32,881 nt of DNA from IMG/VR virus record IMGVR_UViG_2579778650_000028. One strand, 5' to 3'. Source of the stretch: a virus (lineage: Duplodnaviria; Heunggongvirae; Uroviricota; Caudoviricetes). Below are positions 240-9,143 of the stretch, piece after piece. Each line of letters starts with the position of its first letter. The first letter of the stretch is position 1. Under the pieces are notes generated by a model. It saw nothing but the letters and a program-made list of their open reading frames with translations, did no database searches and had not been told where the DNA came from. The position numbers and the translations under genes are program-made.

Positions 240-2333
240 ATGTTTGTGTCAGTTAATGAGCTTGTAGGGCTACCGGGTATGCCGGGAACTGCGCAAGGGG
301 TGCGGTATTCCATAAGGAAACTGGCCTCATCTGAGCATTTCAGGCGCAAACGTGCGGGTTCAAAAACCATTGAATACAGCATCGACTGCCTCCCTCCGGT
401 TACACAACGGGCGTTACGTGAGCGCCATGTAGCTCAACTGATGGCAACCGCCCCGCAGGAGATAACTACCCAGCCTCCTGTAAAGCGTGAACGCAAACAA
501 AATGTTGTACAGCCTGTTGAGGCATATCGCGGTTCGCCACAATTGGTAGAAGAGCGTCTGAATGCGCTTACGGAAAATCAACGTAAAGTTGCAGAAGCGC
601 GTATTGCTCTTGTCTGTGAAGTTCTACGAATTAGCCAGGAGCCGGGATTCAGTTGTGCCAGCGCTATACGTTTTATTGTGTCGCGGTTAGCGCAGGGTAA
701 CCTGGAAGAACGCCTGGAATCTTTGGTCATTACTGCTAATGCCCGTAAAGGGAAAGAGCGAACTCTGAGCGCAATTACGCTCAAACGTTGGATAGCTGCG
801 TTTAACAAAGCACAGAATGCCGCAGAACGATTGCTGTTACTGGCACCAGGAAAGCGCGACGAAATAAAACCGGAAGAAATTAGCTGGCTGCCTGAATTTC
901 TGGCGCAGTATCGTCAGGCTAACGGCAGGCCTATGTCAGAAGCATACGAGGATTTTGTCGCTGATTGGCAGCGTCGCCATGCGGACGAACCATACATGCT
1001 GGAGGTGATGCCTTCCTATGATGTTGTCCGGTATGCCATGAAAAAACTGCCGGAAGTGGTGAAACAAAAAGGGCGCGTTACCGGCAGTGAATACCGTCAG
1101 CTTGAAGGATTCACCCGCCGCGACTGGACAGCTATGCCGGTGAATTATGTCTGGATTGGTGACGGTCACGGTATGAAGCTGAAATGTGCGCATCCGGTTC
1201 ACGGGCGTCCATTTTCACCGGAAGTTACGTTTGTGATCGACGGTGGAACCCGGTTTGTGGTTGGCTGGAGTCTTGATCTTGCGGAGAACGTGTTCGCTGT
1301 TGCCGGGGCGATACAACACGGCATTCGCAATCACGGAAAACCATTCCTGTATTACTCGGATAATGGTTCCGGTGAAACGGCAGATATGCTGGATAAAGAG
1401 ATCGTCGGGATTCTGCCCCGCCTGGGGATTAACCACCCCACTGGTATTGCGGGAAATCCGCAGGGACGCGGCATTATTGAGCGCCTGAACCGGACGTTAC
1501 CGATGCGTATAGCAAGGAGGTATCGCACCTATTTCGGCAAGGGGGCTGACCGGGAATCGTTGCGAGTACTTAATCGTGATCTGCGTTCAGCGTTTAATGC
1601 CCTGCAACAGGACAAGCCACTGAGCGCCCGTCAGAAAGCCGCAATGCGCGAGCTGCCGTCTTGGTCAGAACTGATTGAGGCTATCCGTGAGGGGGTGGAG
1701 TGGTACAACAACCGCCCACATTCTGAATTGCCGATGAAACCAAACGGAAAACATTACAGCCCGGCAGAGTTCAGAAAAAAACGCTTAGCGGAAGAAGACA
1801 CTGAAATTGAGTGGCTGAGTGATATTGAGCTGCGTGACATGTTCCGCCCGATGGTGGAGCGTCCGGTAAGACGCTGCGAAATCCAGTGGCTGAACAATAT
1901 TTACTACGCGCCAGAGCTACGTGATGAACATGGTCGCAAGGTACTTATCAGCTATGACATTCACGATGCCGAGCGAATTACGGTACGCCGTAAGGACGGT
2001 AGCTTTATCTGTGAGGCGATATGGAACGGCAATAAACGCGCAGCCTTTCCTGTTACGGCTGAATATCACAAACAACAGCAACGTATTAAAGGAATGCGCA
2101 AGCGTGCTGAGGAAAAAATACGTGATGCTGAGGATGAAGGTATTCAGGTTATTGAACAAAAAACGATAGAACCCTGGCTGGATAATGTTTATCGCCCTGT
2201 TGGTAATGTGGTGACCGTTCAGCCGTTGAGGTGTGAGGAAGAGCATGATGATGAATACGAAACTGAGCGTGATGAATATCTGAATCATTCGCTGGATATT
2301 CTGGAACAGAACAGACGTAAAAAAGCCATTTAA
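240..2333 (+). CDS. A: Mu-type DDE transposase MuA, 697 aa
   Basis: Long ORF after ner with RBS-like AAGGTGG upstream. C-terminus ...DDEYETERDEYLNHSLDILEQNRRKKAI matches my recollection of the Mu A C-terminal tail (MuB/ClpX interaction). N-terminal DNA-binding region diverges from Mu. Confidence 0.95.
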   Translation: MFVSVNELVGLPGMPGTAQGVRYSIRKLASSEHFRRKRAGSKTIEYSIDCLPPVTQRALRERHVAQLMATAPQEITTQPPVKRERKQNVVQPVEAYRGSPQLVEERLNALTENQRKVAEARIALVCEVLRISQEPGFSCASAIRFIVSRLAQGNLEERLESLVITANARKGKERTLSAITLKRWIAAFNKAQNAAERLLLLAPGKRDEIKPEEISWLPEFLAQYRQANGRPMSEAYEDFVADWQRRHADEPYMLEVMPSYDVVRYAMKKLPEVVKQKGRVTGSEYRQLEGFTRRDWTAMPVNYVWIGDGHGMKLKCAHPVHGRPFSPEVTFVIDGGTRFVVGWSLDLAENVFAVAGAIQHGIRNHGKPFLYYSDNGSGETADMLDKEIVGILPRLGINHPTGIAGNPQGRGIIERLNRTLPMRIARRYRTYFGKGADRESLRVLNRDLRSAFNALQQDKPLSARQKAAMRELPSWSELIEAIREGVEWYNNRPHSELPMKPNGKHYSPAEFRKKRLAEEDTEIEWLSDIELRDMFRPMVERPVRRCEIQWLNNIYYAPELRDEHGRKVLISYDIHDAERITVRRKDGSFICEAIWNGNKRAAFPVTAEYHKQQQRIKGMRKRAEEKIRDAEDEGIQVIEQKTIEPWLDNVYRPVGNVVTVQPLRCEEEHDDEYETERDEYLNHSLDILEQNRRKKAI

Positions 2334-2371
2334 TTAACGTTTAAACAAAATTTAATTACGAGGTTATTCAG

Positions 2372-3310
2372 ATGAATATTTCCGATATTCGCGCAGAACT
2401 GCGCACGCTTGTAGAAAATGAAGAAACCACCTTTAAACAAATTGCTCTTGAGAGCGGGCTTTCTACCGGAACTATCAGTAGTTTTATCAATGATAAGTAC
2501 AACGGGGATAACGAGCGTGTTTCACAAATTCTGCAACGCTGGCTGGAAAAATATCATGCAGTTGCAGAACTACCTGAGCCGCCCCGCTTTGTGGAAACGC
2601 AGACGGTAAAACAAATCTGGACAAGTATGCGTTTTGCCAGCCTGACTGAAAGTATTGCTGTTGTATGTGGCAATCCTGGTGTGGGTAAAACCGAAGCGGC
2701 CCGTGAATATCGCCGCACCAATAACAATGTCTGGATGATCACCATTACGCCATCCTGTGCCAGCGTTCTGGAATGTCTTACTGAACTGGCGTTTGAGCTG
2801 GGAATGAATGACGCACCACGCCGTAAAGGGCCGCTCTCCCGCGCCCTGCGACGTCGCCTTGAAGGTACACAGGGGCTGGTTATCATCGACGAAGCTGATC
2901 ATCTTGGTGCCGAGGTTCTGGAAGAACTCCGCCTGTTACAGGAATCAACCCGTATTGGCCTTGTGCTGATGGGAAATCACCGGGTTTATTCAAATATGAC
3001 GGGGGGTAACAGAACGGTTGAATTTGCCCGTCTGTTTTCCCGTATTGCAAAGCGCACTGCAATTAATAAAACCAAAAAAGCCGATGTAAAAGCTATTGCG
3101 GATGCCTGGCAGATTAACGGTGAAAAAGAACTGGAGTTATTACAGCAGATTGCGCAGAAACCAGGTGCGCTTCGCATTCTGAATCATTCACTTCGCCTTG
3201 CCGCCATGACGGCTCACGGTAAAGGTGAGCGTGTTAACGAAGATTATCTGCGTCAGGCTTTCCGTGAATTAGACCTGGACGTTGATATTTCAACGCTGCT
3301 GCGTAATTAA
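2372..3310 (+). CDS. B: Mu B ATP-dependent target DNA activator (AAA+), 312 aa
   Basis: Walker A GNPGVGKTEA and Walker B LVIIDEADHL. Length and sequence match Mu B as recalled; GAGG RBS 8 nt upstream. Confidence 0.95.
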   Translation: MNISDIRAELRTLVENEETTFKQIALESGLSTGTISSFINDKYNGDNERVSQILQRWLEKYHAVAELPEPPRFVETQTVKQIWTSMRFASLTESIAVVCGNPGVGKTEAAREYRRTNNNVWMITITPSCASVLECLTELAFELGMNDAPRRKGPLSRALRRRLEGTQGLVIIDEADHLGAEVLEELRLLQESTRIGLVLMGNHRVYSNMTGGNRTVEFARLFSRIAKRTAINKTKKADVKAIADAWQINGEKELELLQQIAQKPGALRILNHSLRLAAMTAHGKGERVNEDYLRQAFRELDLDVDISTLLRN

Positions 3311-5980: not shown

Positions 5981-6510
5981 TGTTTTTTAAAACGTCAAAT
6001 CCCGCAGCACTGCTGGCATGGGACCAGTTTATGGCGGACTGCCTGAAACTACGCGAAGAAGCCCGCCATCTTGATAAGGTTCTGGGTTGTGGTTGCCGGT
6101 CAGTATTCAGCACAGGTATTGGTGGGCGTCATTTTCATGGCGTGAATTTTCCGGGGAATGAGCGACCTTTCTCGCCGGAGTTGTGGACTGTACAACGCTC
6201 CGCATCAGGTAACAGTTGCAGGCCAAGAACATCGCGCATTCCTGCACATCTGCGGGAGCAGTCAAAAGAGCTGGCGAAAATATGGCAGGAGAATATTCCG
6301 GTCACTTATGCCCGTACTGACGCTCTCTTACCCGCACTGGGACTGGATTTCAGCGCAACAATATTCGGCCCGCTCCGGTGGTTCCGTGTTGGTGATGTGA
6401 TTTACGTCATGACAGGGATGACTCCCGCACAGGGCCGCATGACTGAAATCCTTTCTGACGAATTTATCCGGGCGCAAAAACAGGCGGAGGTAAACAATGG
6501 AAAACAATGA
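5980..6510 (+). CDS. hypothetical early protein, about 176 aa
   Basis: ATG at 5980 overlaps the upstream stop (TGATG) with GGAGG 8 nt upstream. Track ORF 5941..6510 begins at an upstream TTG. Confidence 0.5.
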   Translation: MFFKTSNPAALLAWDQFMADCLKLREEARHLDKVLGCGCRSVFSTGIGGRHFHGVNFPGNERPFSPELWTVQRSASGNSCRPRTSRIPAHLREQSKELAKIWQENIPVTYARTDALLPALGLDFSATIFGPLRWFRVGDVIYVMTGMTPAQGRMTEILSDEFIRAQKQAEVNNGKQ

Positions 6511-6679
6511 AACATCGTATTCGTGGCTGGGGAAATTTACCACGGTGAAACAGGAATGCCCGACCTGCGGTAATGAATCCCCTGAATATCTGAAAGAGTG
6601 CCCTCATTGTGGCGGGCAGAAATGTAACCACTGCGATATGGGCGATGACACGGCGTGCATGAATTGTGAAGGTGAGTGA
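6497..6679 (+). CDS. small double zinc-ribbon protein, 60 aa
   Basis: Four CxxC pairs (CPTCG, CPHCG, CNHC, CMNC); GGAGG RBS upstream. Confidence 0.5.
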   Translation: MENNETSYSWLGKFTTVKQECPTCGNESPEYLKECPHCGGQKCNHCDMGDDTACMNCEGE

Positions 6680-6680
6680 C

Positions 6681-6989
6681 ATGAATAATGGTGTATTTTC
6701 AAAATCAGAAGAGCTTGCCGCCCTGCTGATTGCCGGTGGTTTGCCGAAAAAAGAAGTGCATGACTTTGTGAATTTTGTATATGAGCCGTCTCATGAAAAA
6801 GCTATTGATGAGGTCATGGCGTACCGGTTTGGCATTATTGCTGAGTCACTGAGTCCTCACTGGATTATTGAAAATCTCCGCGCTATTGCTGATGGCAACG
6901 ATAAATCAGCAGCCGTTGCTGCACTGGATGTGTTACGGCAAATGAGTCTGAAATTTTATCCTGAATTTATTCTGAGGGCCGCAAAATGA
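6681..6989 (+). CDS. hypothetical early protein, about 102 aa
   Basis: ATG at 6681 directly after the upstream stop, with GAAGGTGAG upstream. Track ORF starts at GTG 6666. Confidence 0.5.
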   Translation: MNNGVFSKSEELAALLIAGGLPKKEVHDFVNFVYEPSHEKAIDEVMAYRFGIIAESLSPHWIIENLRAIADGNDKSAAVAALDVLRQMSLKFYPEFILRAAK

Positions 6990-7288
6990 ACAATGAAGAT
7001 AAATTTACTCCCCTTAATATTGATAACGTCATGGCTGAAAAAGGGATGCTGGAACGTGTTCGCGCTATCGTTGAATATGGTATTAAGCATAATCTCACCG
7101 CCAGAGAAGTCCGTGACATTATCAACCGCGAAATGAATCGTCTGGAAACAGTAGTGGCACTGCAAAATGAAACAGCCCGCGAGGAGTACATCCGCCGCAG
7201 GCTGGGGTTATCAGACCAGGATATTGTTACTGACGCTCATGTGTTTGAGGCTTTTGAGATCCGTCAGCATCTGGGTCTAACGAACTGA
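6986..7288 (+). CDS. hypothetical early protein, 100 aa
   Basis: Start overlaps the upstream stop (ATGA); co-oriented with the early operon. Confidence 0.5.
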   Translation: MNNEDKFTPLNIDNVMAEKGMLERVRAIVEYGIKHNLTAREVRDIINREMNRLETVVALQNETAREEYIRRRLGLSDQDIVTDAHVFEAFEIRQHLGLTN

Positions 7289-7493
7289 TAATGTCTTCCA
7301 TGATCTTTGACAGTTGCATGTTTTCGCGGCGGCTTGTTCTTATTGCAGGCGCATCTTTTAAAATCTCTGCTGAAGAGCTGAAAATGGCCTGGCCCTCTTC
7401 TGCGGTGATGATCGCCTTCTTCACCAGAAGGCGCACCAGTGCTGATGCAATCGCATAACCTGCAACATCATAAGGTTGTACATTATTTTCCAT
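7227..7493 (-). CDS. hypothetical 88-aa protein encoded antisense to the early operon
   Basis: Minus-strand ORF with a good Shine-Dalgarno (AGAGAGGA) about 5 nt upstream of its ATG. It covers 7289..7493, where no plus-strand ORF of 60 aa or more exists, and overlaps the 3' end of the 6986..7288 gene by 62 nt. Confidence 0.4.
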   Translation of the reverse strand: MENNVQPYDVAGYAIASALVRLLVKKAIITAEEGQAIFSSSAEILKDAPAIRTSRRENMQLSKIMEDIISSLDPDADGSQKPQTHERQ

Positions 7494-7562
7494 AAAATCC
7501 TCTCTGATTGATGTGTAAATTCAGGCGGTGTTGCAGCACCGCCTCTTTCCGGAGGTACGATC

Positions 7563-8114
7563 ATGAATCGCACATCCCTGATTAAATTAATCCATGTCGC
7601 CCGTCGGGAGCTACAACTCGACGACGACACTTACCGCGCTTTTCTGATGCAGAAAACGGGCAAAATCAGTTGCCGCGAGCTGACGGTTACGCAACTGGAA
7701 CAGGTGCTCGATGCCATGAAAGAACGCGGCTTTAAGAAGCTGAATAAACATCCACGTCGCCGCTTTAAGGGGCATGTCACGCCCCGCGAGAAGGTATACA
7801 AAGTCTGGCAGCAGATGGCAGAAGACGGTTTTATTACCGATGGCGGTGATGTGGCGCTGGATAAATATGTTCAGCGCCTGACGGCGAAACGTAATGGCGG
7901 ACAGGGTGTTTCCACGCTGGCGTGGTGTCATGGCGACACCCTGTTGATTGTTCTCGAAACTCTCAAGCAGTGGCATATCCGCTGTATTCGTGAAGCCTTT
8001 TCCCGTCACGGGCTTCCGTTGCCAGTCAGTCCGTCCGGGCGTGAACTGCGCGGCTATGATGCCATGACGGCGGCTTATGCCCGTGCCAGAAAGACACGGA
8101 GGATGGCACAATGA
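7563..8114 (+). CDS. gemA: GemA-like early regulatory protein (Mu gp16 family), 183 aa
   Basis: Position immediately upstream of mor, with stop/start overlap; length and N-terminus (MNRTSLIKLIHVARRELQLDDDTYRAFL) consistent with GemA as recalled; GGAGG RBS. Confidence 0.75.
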   Translation: MNRTSLIKLIHVARRELQLDDDTYRAFLMQKTGKISCRELTVTQLEQVLDAMKERGFKKLNKHPRRRFKGHVTPREKVYKVWQQMAEDGFITDGGDVALDKYVQRLTAKRNGGQGVSTLAWCHGDTLLIVLETLKQWHIRCIREAFSRHGLPLPVSPSGRELRGYDAMTAAYARARKTRRMAQ

Positions 8115-8500
8115 CGGAAGATTTATTTGGTGATTTGCAGGATGACACCATCCTGGCACATCTTGACAATCCCGCAGAGGATACGTCACGCTTTCCGGCA
8201 CTGCTGGCGGAGCTGAACGATTTACTGCGCGGGGAATTGTCCCGGTTAGGTGTTGACCCGGCCCATTCACTGGAGATTGTTGTGGCTATCTGTAAGCATC
8301 TGGGCGGCGGTCAGGTCTACATTCCACGCGGTCAGGTTCTGGATTCGCTTATTCGGGATTTGCGTATCTGGAATGATTTCAACGGTCGCAATGTTCACGA
8401 ACTGGCAATCCGTCATGGTGTGACATTTAACACAGTCTATAAAGCCATCCGACGAATGCGGCGTATAAAGTATCGTCAGTGTTCCCCCCCTTTGTTTTAA
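8111..8500 (+). CDS. mor: Mor, middle operon regulator (Mor/C family activator), 129 aa
   Basis: 129 aa with a C-terminal HTH; clearly paralogous to the C protein at 9479 (shared LxxxxGGxQxYIPxG...FNGRN motif); located after gemA. Confidence 0.85.
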   Translation: MTEDLFGDLQDDTILAHLDNPAEDTSRFPALLAELNDLLRGELSRLGVDPAHSLEIVVAICKHLGGGQVYIPRGQVLDSLIRDLRIWNDFNGRNVHELAIRHGVTFNTVYKAIRRMRRIKYRQCSPPLF

Positions 8501-8506
8501 ACAGTA

Positions 8507-8530
8507 AAGCCGGTTAATCCGGCTTTTTTT
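8507..8530 (+). terminator. rho-independent terminator after mor
   Basis: Hairpin AAGCCGG-TTAAT-CCGGCTT followed by a 7-T run. Confidence 0.7.
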
Positions 8531-8582
8531 ACGCCCTCAATATTCTGTTGTGACGATAAAACGTTCATGACAGGAGGGCAAC
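8531..8582 (+). promoter_or_regulatory. candidate Mor-dependent middle promoter (Pm) region
   Basis: Only intergenic DNA between the mor terminator and the next operon; Mu places Pm downstream of mor. No motif verified. Confidence 0.3.
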
Positions 8583-9143
8583 ATGCCTGAGTTTTCCCCT
8601 GCATTCCTTCATTCGCTGAATTTCGTTATACGCCCTGATGTTGAAGGTGGCTATGTTAATGATCCTGCCGACCGTGGCGGCGAAACGAAATACGGTATTT
8701 CTGACCGTCGCGACGGCGTTATTGATGGCAAAACCGATGTTAACGGTGACGGAAAACCTGATACCCGCATTAAGGATTTAACCCGCGAGCAGGCGGCGCA
8801 GATCTACTGGCGTGATTACTGGCTGGCGGCAAAGTGTAACGAATGGCCTGATGGCGTTTCCTTATTCGTTTTTGATGCTGCCGTTCAGCACGGTGTTAAA
8901 CGCGCGATTCAGATCCTCCAGGCGGCAGCAGGTGTTGATGATGATGGCATCGTCGGTAAAAACACACGCGCAGCCGTTCTGCGTGCCGATACTGACTGGC
9001 TGCTGTTGCAGTGCTTCCTGCGTCGTTCCCGCTATTACGCAGGGATTATCAAATCCAGTGCCTCGCAGGGGAAATATCTGAATGGCTGGTTTAACCGTCT
9101 GGATCTGCTCGCCAGCGCCTGTCGGGAGGTTCTGCATGGGTAA
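8583..9143 (+). CDS. GH108-family muramidase-like protein with C-terminal peptidoglycan-binding domain, 186 aa
   Basis: N-terminal EGGYVNDPADRGGETKYGI motif typical of glycoside hydrolase family 108, and DDGIVGKNTRAAV typical of the PG_binding_3 domain; strong AGGAGG RBS. Confidence 0.75.
   Translation: MPEFSPAFLHSLNFVIRPDVEGGYVNDPADRGGETKYGISDRRDGVIDGKTDVNGDGKPDTRIKDLTREQAAQIYWRDYWLAAKCNEWPDGVSLFVFDAAVQHGVKRAIQILQAAAGVDDDGIVGKNTRAAVLRADTDWLLLQCFLRRSRYYAGIIKSSASQGKYLNGWFNRLDLLASACREVLHG

What the first reader, a model, noticed from the sequence alone, without database searches (positions are those of the whole stretch)
7227..7562. Possible antisense gene embedded in the rightward early operon
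The early region is otherwise strictly co-directional. An 88-aa minus-strand ORF with a good RBS occupies the only stretch (7289..7493) lacking a plus-strand ORF of 60 aa or more, and its start faces gemA across 69 bp that contain an 8-bp stem hairpin (7523..7544). An oppositely oriented small gene here could be an immunity, superinfection-exclusion or lysogeny-expressed factor.
Basis: inference. Interest (0 to 1): 0.5.

Follow-up and report, generated by a model that had tools for sequence, protein, structure and literature searches.

The report
Phage Mu gene 15, leftward gene
The flagged minus-strand ORF is gene 15 of phage Mu and its relatives, already annotated but never characterised; diverged relatives show it is a real small leftward gene with its own terminator, and its function is still unknown.

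Summary
The window is a Muvirus: 100% identical to Yersinia phages vB_YpM_5/6 and 97% to SfMu. It is not new. It is Mu gp15 (Mup15), SfMu gp16 and vB_YpM_5 gene 23, and PGAP calls it in E. coli prophages. The updated Mu GenBank record replaced it with a 55-aa plus-strand ORF, Mu_54 (window 7291..7458).

Comparative evidence favours the minus ORF:
- Homologs of 42-51% identity keep the ORF, Shine-Dalgarno site, position and orientation.
- Six sequence types share a 47-residue core (hhalign E 1.3e-7).
- The plus ORF is broken in Salmonella relatives and has atypical codon-position composition.

I also found a conserved leftward Rho-independent terminator (7204..7173 plus U tail) 22 nt past the stop, embedded antisense in the upstream gene E15.

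The product is a 9.7-kDa acidic, soluble, helical protein with no known fold or family. It is dispensable, because a clean 223-bp deletion exists in the isolated phages vB_YpM_3/23. No promoter was identified. The function (immunity, exclusion or lysogenic expression) is untested. My best guess is an independently expressed accessory protein.

The parts
7227..7493 (-). gp15 (Mup15) ortholog: an 88-aa, 9.7-kDa, acidic (pI 5.0), all-alpha protein. The conserved core is residues ~3-49. Residues 69-88 are encoded in the overlap with E15.
   Evidence: ORF. It is annotated as a CDS in MT374853, NC_027382, NC_000929 and RefSeq E. coli genomes. It matches phrog_8747 at E 1.3e-60. Homologs of 42-51% identity occupy the same place. 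hhalign to the D108-type group gives E 1.3e-7. AF2 predicts helices 8-25, 31-45 and 61-72.
7499..7504 (-). Shine-Dalgarno site GAGAGG of gp15, with 5 nt between its last G and the ATG at 7493.
   Evidence: Read from the sequence. A purine-rich Shine-Dalgarno site is present at the same distance in all subtypes.
7523..7544 (.). Invariant palindrome or hairpin, (A)GGCGGTG-N6-CACCGCC(T), 19-40 nt upstream of the gemA ATG. On the + strand it is followed by CTCTTTCC. It lies in the shared 5' region of the divergent genes gp15 and gemA.
   Evidence: The arms are identical and the loop varies in types A, B, C, D and F. It is unique in the window. It is absent where no gp15-family gene or remnant sits in the slot, with L067 as the exception. 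It falls inside the feature annotated 'semi-early promoter' in AF083977.
7164..7204 (-). Leftward Rho-independent terminator of the gp15 unit. The stem-loop is 7204..7173 (13 pairs including G-U) and the U tail is 7172..7164 (UUUCAUUUU). It starts 22 nt after the gp15 stop codon and is encoded antisense inside E15 (protein motif TAREEYIRRRL).
   Evidence: The 76-nt stretch containing it folds to -25.8 kcal/mol on the minus RNA and -21.1 kcal/mol on the plus RNA. It is present in all six subtypes, with stronger U runs in B, C and D. On the minus RNA 92.3% of cells pair, against 78.2% on the plus RNA; 3 pairs show compensatory changes; slid controls give 37-58%. The T run exists only on the minus strand. 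TransTermHP also predicted a terminator at this spot in Mu.
6986..7288 (+). E15 (Mu gp14) ortholog, the convergent partner. Its last 62 nt overlap the gp15 3' end, and it co-varies with gp15 as a two-gene cassette.
   Evidence: 99% identical to Mu_14 and a match to phrog_6075. In the overlap, substitutions fall on E15 wobble positions. An E15-family gene accompanies every gp15-family subtype.
7291..7458 (+). 55-aa plus-strand ORF, equivalent to Mu_54 of AF083977. I judge it a shadow ORF of gp15, because the third codon positions of the two frames coincide.
   Evidence: It matches no PHROG or Pfam family. Its frame is interrupted in Salmonella relatives, where the longest open run is 42 codons. 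Its codon-position GC is atypical at .41/.52/.54. No Shine-Dalgarno site is present.
7563..8114 (+). gemA, the divergent neighbour. It is followed by mor at 8111..8500.
   Evidence: PF06252 at E 2.4e-30 and PF08765 at E 1.4e-29.

Best explanation
Window 7227..7493 (-) is the ortholog of phage Mu gene 15. It is a genuine, self-contained leftward transcription unit wedged between E15 and gemA in the otherwise rightward early operon.

Shown here:
- The unit has a Shine-Dalgarno site (7504..7499), an 88-codon ORF and a Rho-independent terminator (7204..7164) that is encoded antisense within E15.
- The product is a small, acidic, soluble, helical protein. Only its N-terminal ~47 residues, a helical hairpin, are conserved across six sequence subtypes.
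- The C-terminal ~20 residues are a by-product of the overlap with E15.
- The gene is dispensable for making phage.
- It is exchanged together with E15 as a two-gene cassette. In other relatives an unrelated leftward gene replaces it, or the slot is empty.

Inferred, not shown:
- It is transcribed from an unidentified promoter in or near the 5' end of gemA, independently of the repressor-controlled early promoter Pe. The invariant palindrome 7523..7544 would then lie in its leader.
- The protein acts by binding another protein, as an accessory factor for host or competing-phage interaction, possibly in the lysogen.
- As a side effect, its convergent transcription opposes read-through of early transcripts into gemA-mor.

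My confidence that it is a real protein-coding leftward unit is about 0.9. My confidence in the accessory, Pe-independent role is about 0.3. The single confidence value given for this explanation (0.6) is a compromise between the two.
For: Identity of the gene:
- The window is 100% identical to vB_YpM_5/6 and 97% to SfMu, and the encoded protein is 95.5% identical to Mu gp15.
- The ORF is annotated on the minus strand in four phage records and by PGAP in E. coli.

Evidence that it codes:
- An exhaustive HMMER search found homologs of 45-51% identity and 86-90 aa, and a profile search added one of 43%. All that could be placed lie divergent from gemA, with 69-73 bp between the start codons and a 3' overlap with the upstream gene.
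- The minus frame is the only frame without stops in every lineage.
- Its BLOSUM sum is 172 against at most 121 for any other frame, and differences at codon positions 1/2/3 are 25/19/36.
- omega is 0.19-0.36 at dS 1.2-2.0.
- Its codon-position GC and purine pattern matches the window's bona fide genes.
- Subtypes A-D and F all have the same core motif; types A-D match phrog_32893. hhalign of A against B/C/D gives 94% probability and E 1.3e-7. D against B gives 36.5% identity, E 2e-6.

Terminator.

Dispensability: vB_YpM_3 has a 223-bp deletion between TGAT repeats that leaves E15, the palindrome and gemA intact, and vB_YpM_23 likewise lacks codons 1-68. Both were isolated as phages.

Slot census of 47 gemA loci: 19 carry the gp15 family, 11 carry an unrelated leftward gene (phrog_585), and 17 carry none.

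Protein properties: not membrane-spanning and acidic; helical, with pLDDT 85-92 over residues 10-40.
Against: - No promoter was found. No sigma-70 consensus lies on either strand in 6900..7900. The best leftward candidate scores only 7/12 with a 19-nt spacer.
- No expression data of any kind were available.
- The current GenBank Mu record, a curated update, places the gene on the plus strand.
- dN/dS cannot separate the minus ORF from its wobble-coincident shadow frame.
- The terminator stem is also constrained by E15 coding, and only 8 related sequences support the covariation.
- Nothing links the protein to defence, exclusion or immunity: PADLOC, Pfam and NCBIfam give no hits and fold searches are uninformative.
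- GC content (0.46) is like that of its neighbours, not that of a foreign insert.
Confidence: 0.6

Rival explanations
1. The real gene is the plus-strand 55-aa ORF 7291..7458 (Mu_54 of the updated AF083977 record). It would be translationally coupled to E15 and co-directional with the early operon, and the minus ORF would be its shadow.
For: The curated GenBank update chose this ORF. Its ATG lies 2 nt after the E15 stop codon (TGATAATG; TGATG in L019), which would allow coupling. The ORF is also open in the 51%-type relatives, at 61 aa. After masking stops, omega in that frame is as low as in the minus frame.
Against: - Its third codon positions coincide with those of the minus ORF, so low omega is expected for a shadow frame.
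- The frame is broken in Salmonella relatives, with 5 stops and a longest open run of 42 codons, while the minus ORF stays intact.
- It has a lower BLOSUM sum, no Shine-Dalgarno site, and no PHROG or Pfam family.
- Its codon-position GC is .41/.52/.54, unlike the window's genes.
- It cannot explain the conserved minus-strand Shine-Dalgarno site, the superfamily core across subtypes whose DNA is unalignable, or the leftward terminator.
Confidence: 0.05
2. The unit works mainly at the RNA or transcription level. Leftward transcription, ending at the embedded terminator, gives an antisense RNA to the E15 3' end and collides with early transcription. This damps read-through from Pe into gemA-mor, which would stabilise lysogeny or time the middle phase. 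The protein would be secondary.
For: The convergent, 3'-overlapping geometry with E15 is conserved in every subtype, with overlaps of 20-62 nt. The terminator sits inside E15. An unrelated leftward gene (type E) occupies the same slot in the same orientation, so orientation is conserved even when the protein is not. The literature reports low-level Pe transcription in lysogens (PMC3820752).
Against: The protein core is under purifying selection and is conserved across subtypes whose DNA has diverged beyond alignment, so the protein itself is selected. Many relatives do without any leftward gene, as do two isolated phages. No promoter is known.
Confidence: 0.15
3. gp15 is a small regulator that binds the invariant palindrome GGCGGTG-N6-CACCGCC between itself and gemA. 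It would control the divergent gp15 and gemA-mor ('semi-early' or gem) promoters.
For: The palindrome arms are invariant while the loop varies, in the same lineages where the terminator stem does change with compensation. That pattern fits sequence-specific recognition. The palindrome co-occurs with gp15-family cassettes or their remnants and is absent from type-E and most empty slots. It lies inside the promoter feature annotated in Mu. The literature reports repressor-independent gem expression in lysogens (Paolozzi and Ghelardini 1992, cited in PMC3820752).
Against: gp15 subtypes differ greatly (about 15% identity) while the palindrome is identical, which is unexpected for a cognate protein-operator pair. 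The protein is acidic, with no HTH, RHH or other DNA-binding match. The palindrome is retained after deletion of gp15 and in L067, which has no leftward gene.
Confidence: 0.1
4. The stretch is non-coding. It would be only the promoter and leader region of gemA-mor, and the 88-codon ORF would be fortuitous.
For: A 'semi-early promoter' is annotated at the equivalent of window ~7482..7547 in Mu. The gene is dispensable.
Against: A fortuitous ORF would not stay open with a conserved start, Shine-Dalgarno site and 47-residue core through saturated synonymous divergence and six subtypes. The promoter feature covers only the first 12 nt of the ORF.
Confidence: 0.03

Closest known systems
Phage Mu gp15 (Mup15, NP_050619; NC_000929 7896..8162, minus strand), SfMu gp16 (YP_009152202) and vB_YpM_5 gene 23 (QKE55401)
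   Same: This is the same gene. The protein is 100% identical to the SfMu and vB_YpM_5 copies and 95.5% identical to Mu gp15. Position, orientation, 69-bp spacer and palindrome are all the same.
   Different: Nothing of substance differs. None of these genes has been characterised. The updated GenBank Mu record AF083977 no longer lists it and lists the plus-strand Mu_54 instead.
D108 / Mu_3F6 119-aa leftward ORF (unannotated in D108, VUD37876 in LR595867; phrog_38610), together with subtypes C, D and F found here
   Same: They occupy the same slot in the same orientation, at the same distance from gemA, with the same palindrome and the same embedded leftward terminator. They share a 47-residue helical core.
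   Different: Overall identity is only about 15%. The D108 protein has an acidic N-terminal extension, the C-terminal halves differ, and the DNA is not alignable.
Phage 'morons' (autonomously expressed accessory genes such as lambda bor and lom)
   Same: It is a small, dispensable gene forming its own unit with its own intrinsic terminator, it is not part of the surrounding operon, and it is variably present among close relatives.
   Different: No promoter is recognisable. GC content is not atypical. The family is an old resident of this genome position rather than a recent insertion. Expression in the lysogen has not been shown.
Overlapping or antisense exclusion genes (olg1, gene 10) of the Pseudomonas transposable phage Fc02 (PMC9936078)
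   Same: They are small genes on opposite strands that overlap in the early region of a transposable phage. One of them is transcribed in the lysogen and mediates superinfection exclusion.
   Different: They lie next to the repressor and ner, not next to gemA. No similarity between them and gp15 was tested here. For gp15 neither lysogenic transcription nor exclusion has been tested.

Membership tests
Mu gp15 family (phrog_8747) | Full-length sequence homology to Mu gp15 | tested here: met
   phrog_8747 at E 1.3e-60 over residues 1-88, and 95.5% identity to Mu by tblastn.
Mu gp15 family (phrog_8747) | Position between E15 (Mu gp14) and gemA, on the strand opposite to the early operon | tested here: met
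gp15 superfamily (phrog_8747, phrog_38610 and phrog_32893-like core) | Shared N-terminal ~47-residue helical core | tested here: met
   phrog_32893 at E 2.3e-4 (type A), 5.4e-7 (B), 0.038 (C) and 2.1e-9 (D). hhalign gives 94% probability, E 1.3e-7.
Moron (autonomous accessory transcription unit) | Own terminator directly downstream | tested here: met
   Leftward stem-loop plus U tail at 7204..7164, conserved in all subtypes. In silico only.
Moron (autonomous accessory transcription unit) | Own promoter directly upstream | tested here: inconclusive
   No sigma-70 consensus match in 6900..7900. Only a weak 7/12 candidate exists: -35 at 7590..7585 and -10 at 7565..7560.
Moron (autonomous accessory transcription unit) | Present or absent among otherwise collinear relatives, and dispensable | tested here: met
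   A 223-bp deletion in vB_YpM_3, with vB_YpM_23 also lacking the gene, and the slot census.
Moron (autonomous accessory transcription unit) | Base composition unlike that of the neighbours | tested here: not met
   GC is 0.46, against 0.435-0.455 for the two upstream genes.
Moron (autonomous accessory transcription unit) | Expression from the repressed prophage | not testable with these tools
   No transcript data are available. The literature search found none for this gene.
Known anti-phage defence or superinfection-exclusion proteins | Match to a defence-system model, or a membrane or periplasmic topology typical of Sie proteins | tested here: not met
   PADLOC gives no hits for any subtype. 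The maximum 19-residue hydropathy is 0.94-1.51, below the ~1.6 expected of a membrane helix.
DNA-binding regulators (HTH, RHH and similar) | Recognisable DNA-binding domain or fold | tested here: not met
   No significant match in Pfam, NCBIfam, PDB sequence profiles or Foldseek. The protein is acidic.
Rho-independent terminator (7164..7204, minus strand) | GC-rich stem followed by a U run on the transcribed strand, conserved with compensatory changes | tested here: met
   On the minus RNA 89-92% of cells pair, against 78% on the plus RNA, and 3 pairs covary. Termination itself has not been measured.

The most novel reading that the evidence does not exclude
The convergent E15/gp15 pair, the terminator embedded in E15 and the invariant palindrome together form a conserved control or arms-race module at the early-to-middle boundary of enterobacterial Mu-like phages. 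There are two versions of this reading. In one, the module is a Pe-independent, lysogen-active insulator that limits read-through into gemA-mor. In the other, the slot is a fast-evolving hot spot for a leftward anti-defence or exclusion protein, with six gp15 subtypes and an unrelated phrog_585 gene swapped into it.
Probability: 0.2. Interest if true: 0.55.

Novelty: already known. Interest (0 to 1): 0.3.

Why it matters
Mu is a model phage, yet its two public annotations disagree on the strand of this gene: RefSeq lists gp15 on the minus strand and the updated GenBank record lists Mu_54 on the plus strand. The comparative evidence here supports the minus-strand gene. It also adds a conserved leftward terminator hidden inside E15, a superfamily of six subtypes, and a recurrent leftward slot just upstream of gemA-mor. 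That gives a concrete, cheap target for experiments on what Mu expresses independently of Pe, beyond the repressor and gem. Otherwise this is an ordinary uncharacterised accessory gene.

Tried and rejected
- **Word-indexed homolog searches** found only close or family-internal relatives. The exhaustive search added three clusters at 45-51% identity and one spurious hit: P0005, a 1438-aa repeat protein whose score is summed over 12 repeats.
- **Scans of GTDB representative genomes** with the type A alignment and with type D found nothing. The B/C/D alignment was too diverged to scan.
- **Family libraries** gave no functional hit: Pfam, NCBIfam and PADLOC had no hit above threshold, and PHROGs gave only families of unknown function. 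PDB profile searches gave only chance-level hits.
- **The AF2 model** has mean pLDDT 68. Foldseek against the PDB and BFVD returned only Mu's own protein, so no function can be read from the fold.
- **dN/dS as a strand discriminator failed.** The shadow frame shares wobble positions and gives a similar omega. I relied instead on stop codons, BLOSUM scores, composition, the Shine-Dalgarno site and the terminator.
- **Promoter search** was negative by the consensus scan and gave only a weak candidate in a relaxed scan. By eye the hairpin does not fit sigma-54 spacing.
- **Rfam** has nothing at the hairpins.
- **The palindrome** has no other copy in the window.
- **Type E** (phrog_585, weak DUF2513 match) is not related to gp15.
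- **Literature:** PMID 9454718, cited in AF083977 for the 'semi-early promoter', is not held. Searches for gp15, Mup15 or Mu transcriptomes found nothing on this gene. The SfMu and Yersinia phage papers do not discuss it.
Full report
**What the window is.** Megablast of 6500..8600 gives 100% identity to Yersinia phages vB_YpM_5 and vB_YpM_6, 97.4% to Shigella phage SfMu and about 95% to Mu. The window starts with the transposase genes A and B (240..2333 and 2372..3310). gemA is 7563..8114 and mor is 8111..8500 (Pfam).

**The observation.**
- The ORF is an 88-aa ATG ORF on the minus strand at 7227..7493.
- It has a GAGAGG Shine-Dalgarno site, with 5 nt between it and the ATG.
- Exactly 69 bp separate it from the gemA start.
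- An 8-bp stem lies at 7523..7544; the 48-nt stretch around it folds to -18 kcal/mol, z -2.95.
- No plus-strand ORF of 60 aa or more lies in between.
- The one error is the alternative plus ORF. It is 7291..7458 (55 aa), not 7311..7469.

**It is already annotated, and the annotations conflict.**
- The minus ORF is a CDS in vB_YpM_5 (QKE55401) and in SfMu (gp16).
- In RefSeq Mu it is Mup15/gp15 (7896..8162, minus strand).
- The 1991 left-end record has a longer version, 'F-134'.
- PGAP calls it in RefSeq E. coli chromosomes. The region is found in 68 of 5426 complete E. coli genomes.
- The updated GenBank Mu record AF083977 instead lists a plus-strand 55-aa 'Mu_54' over the same DNA. It also lists a 'semi-early promoter' feature equivalent to window ~7482..7547. 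That update is acknowledged in PMC9239132.
- Mu therefore contains this segment, so it is not an insertion. Mu_14 (E15) is 99% identical to window 6986..7288. The extra ~300 bp relative to Mu is the plus-strand gene 6681..6989 (phrog_1988).

**Which strand codes?**
- The exhaustive HMMER search found real homologs of 45-51% identity and 86-90 aa (alignment).
- I could place three lineages in their genomes: E. coli-type prophages (L017-L021) and Salmonella prophages (L024-L026). In each the homolog lies between an E15-family gene and gemA, on the opposite strand. There are 69-73 bp between the two start codons, and the 3' ends of the convergent genes overlap.
- Between the window and L019, codons 1-68 differ at positions 1/2/3 in 25/19/36 of 68 sites. 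The minus frame has the best BLOSUM sum, 172 against at most 121.
- It is the only frame without stops in every lineage.
- omega is 0.19-0.36 at dS 1.2-2.0.
- The Mu_54 frame shares its third codon positions with the minus ORF, so it shows a similar omega once stops are masked. dN/dS therefore does not discriminate between the two.
- The Mu_54 frame is nevertheless interrupted in the Salmonella lineage, where the longest open run is 42 codons. It has no Shine-Dalgarno site and no PHROG or Pfam family. Its codon-position GC is .41/.52/.54.
- The minus ORF has codon-position GC of .54/.38/.46 with 71% purine at position 1, like A, B, gam, E15 and gemA.

**A superfamily in a conserved slot.**
- D108 and Mu_3F6 have unalignable DNA between gp14 and gemA. 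They still carry a 119-aa minus ORF that starts 69 bp from gemA, behind the same palindrome.
- I surveyed 63 IMG/VR loci anchored on gemA, and then 31 anchored on E15. This gave further subtypes: C (79 aa), D (80 aa) and F (79 aa).
- All share the core pattern (aromatic)-x-(hydrophobic)-x-G/A-x-x-(hydrophobic)-x-x-L-(hydrophobic)-x-K/N-x-(hydrophobic)-I-x-x-x-E/D-A/G-x-x-I.
- Types A-D match phrog_32893. D against B gives 36.5% identity, E 2e-6. hhalign of A against B/C/D gives 94% probability, E 1.3e-7 over 47 columns.
- Among the 47 enterobacterial gemA loci, 19 carry a gp15-family gene. Eleven carry an unrelated leftward gene of 134-138 aa (phrog_585, weak DUF2513 match; hhalign probability 3%).
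- The other 17 carry none. In most of these gemA is translationally coupled (ATGA) to the upstream plus gene and the palindrome is absent.
- Each gp15 subtype comes with its own E15 subtype. The exchangeable unit is therefore the convergent pair.

**A leftward terminator inside E15.**
- Twenty-two nt after the gp15 stop codon, the minus strand reads CAGCCUGCGGCGGAUGUACUCCUCGCGGGCUG-UUUCAUUUU (7204..7164). The 76-nt stretch around it folds to -25.8 kcal/mol on the minus RNA and -21.1 kcal/mol on the plus RNA.
- The same 32-nt hairpin, in the same register, is present in all six subtypes. Subtypes B, C and D have stronger U runs: UUUUUUGUU and UUUUUUUU.
- For six sequences, 92.3% of cells pair on the minus RNA but only 78.2% on the plus RNA, because the G-U pairs become A-C mismatches. 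Three pairs show compensatory double changes. Slid controls give 37-56%.
- For eight sequences, 89.4% of cells pair.
- The U run exists only on the minus strand. On the plus strand it is the A-rich run encoding ..NKK.. or ..QNET.. of the E15 motif KKARxxFIRRRLG.
- TransTermHP had flagged the same spot in Mu.
- Two caveats apply. The stem is also constrained by E15 coding, and the sequences are few and related.
- In the overlap (gp15 codons 69-88), substitutions fall on E15 wobble positions: 3/7/2 at gp15 positions 1/2/3. The gp15 tail is therefore hitch-hiking, which agrees with its low pLDDT.

**The palindrome.**
- GGCGGTG-N6-CACCGCC is identical in arms and variable in loop in subtypes A, B, C, D and F (the last C is lost in D and F).
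- It is kept after deletion of gp15 and is unique in the window.
- On the plus strand it is followed by a short T-rich run, 3-5 T.
- Invariant arms contrast with the covarying terminator stem in the same lineages. This hints at sequence-specific recognition, or at a role in the gemA promoter or leader.
- I could not resolve this. The paper cited for the 'semi-early promoter' (PMID 9454718) is not held.
- The literature does report repressor-independent expression of the gem operon in lysogens (Paolozzi and Ghelardini 1992, cited in PMC3820752).

**The protein.**
- It is 9.7 kDa with pI 5.0; the subtypes range from pI 4.3 to 6.2. No 19-residue window reaches membrane-helix hydropathy; the maximum is 0.94-1.51.
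- AF2 on a 9-sequence alignment gives helices 8-25, 31-45 and 61-72. pLDDT is 85-92 for residues 10-40, and the tail is disordered.
- Foldseek against the PDB and BFVD finds only Mu's own entry.
- PADLOC, NCBIfam, Pfam and PDB profiles give nothing.

**Dispensability.**
- vB_YpM_3 lacks exactly 223 bp between two TGAT repeats. This removes gp15 codons 1-68 and its Shine-Dalgarno site but leaves E15, the palindrome and gemA intact. vB_YpM_23 also lacks those codons. Both were isolated and characterised as phages (PMC10434027).
- L045 has a larger deletion that leaves five codons.

**What remains open.**
- No promoter was found. The consensus scan was negative on both strands. The best leftward candidate, -35 TTAATT at 7590..7585 and -10 CATGAT at 7565..7560 with a 19-nt spacer, scores only 7/12.
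- There are no expression data, and nothing ties the protein to immunity, exclusion or defence.
- My best-supported reading is a real, autonomous, leftward accessory gene, with confidence of about 0.9 that it is real.
- By inference (about 0.3), its product acts through protein binding, independently of Pe.
- An RNA-level or insulator role of the convergent transcription, and a regulatory role at the palindrome, are the live rivals.

**Verdict.** The gene is already known as an annotated hypothetical (Mu gp15). The modest new value is threefold: evidence that resolves the strand conflict between the two Mu annotations, the embedded leftward terminator, and the description of the E15/gp15 cassette and of the leftward slot in front of gemA.

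Noticed in passing
window 7291..7458 (+) versus 7227..7493 (-); Mu records AF083977 and NC_000929: The two public Mu annotations disagree on the strand of this gene. RefSeq lists gp15 on the minus strand. The updated GenBank record lists Mu_54 on the plus strand, and the protein accession was bumped to AAF01092.2. The comparative evidence here favours the minus strand.
   Followed up: yes
window 6681..6989 (+): This is an extra plus-strand gene (phrog_1988, ~102 aa) between E14 and E15, present in this phage and in SfMu but absent from Mu. It accounts for the ~300-bp length difference from Mu. In relatives with the type E leftward gene, a homolog of this gene is the convergent partner. It carries a minus-strand hairpin plus T-rich tail at its DK(V/S)AAVAAL motif; the weaker window equivalent is at 6909..6922.
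   Followed up: partly
L032, L052, L070 and 8 other loci, immediately upstream of gemA: An unrelated leftward gene of 134-138 aa (phrog_585, weak DUF2513 match) occupies the same slot. It starts only 30 bp from the gemA ATG and has no palindrome. The slot seems to accept leftward genes of different families.
   Followed up: partly
window 8583..9143 (+): A 186-aa protein with GH108 (E 9e-25) and PG_binding_3 (E 7e-14) domains sits just after mor, where Mu has E18 and E19. It is a second muramidase-like gene in addition to the SAR endolysin gene further right. L019 has a 195-aa homolog.
   Followed up: partly
L024 and L025 (Salmonella prophages), 2052..2387 in locus coordinates: A called 111-aa gene lies just downstream of gemA on the strand opposite to it, and no separate mor is seen there. 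Only one Mor/C-family gene precedes the lysozyme gene. This may be a second antisense slot.
   Followed up: no
window 7499..7505 and 7551..7555: In a rightward read-through RNA, the complement of the gp15 Shine-Dalgarno site (CCUCUC) can pair with the gemA Shine-Dalgarno site (GGAGG) across the hairpin. In a leftward RNA, the mirror pairing would mask the gp15 Shine-Dalgarno site. This fold is the minimum-free-energy structure but has low frequency in the ensemble (0.06-0.15), so it may be incidental.
   Followed up: no
L045 (IMG/VR 2875703104_000002), upstream of gemA: This deletion variant joins the start of the E15-family gene (MNNETK...) to the fifth codon of gp15. It removes the E15 homolog and nearly all of gp15 but keeps the palindrome.
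   Followed up: partly
protein P0005: This 1438-aa tandem-repeat protein scored E 1e-23 against gp15 only because 12 weak repeat matches were summed. It is a false positive.
   Followed up: yes
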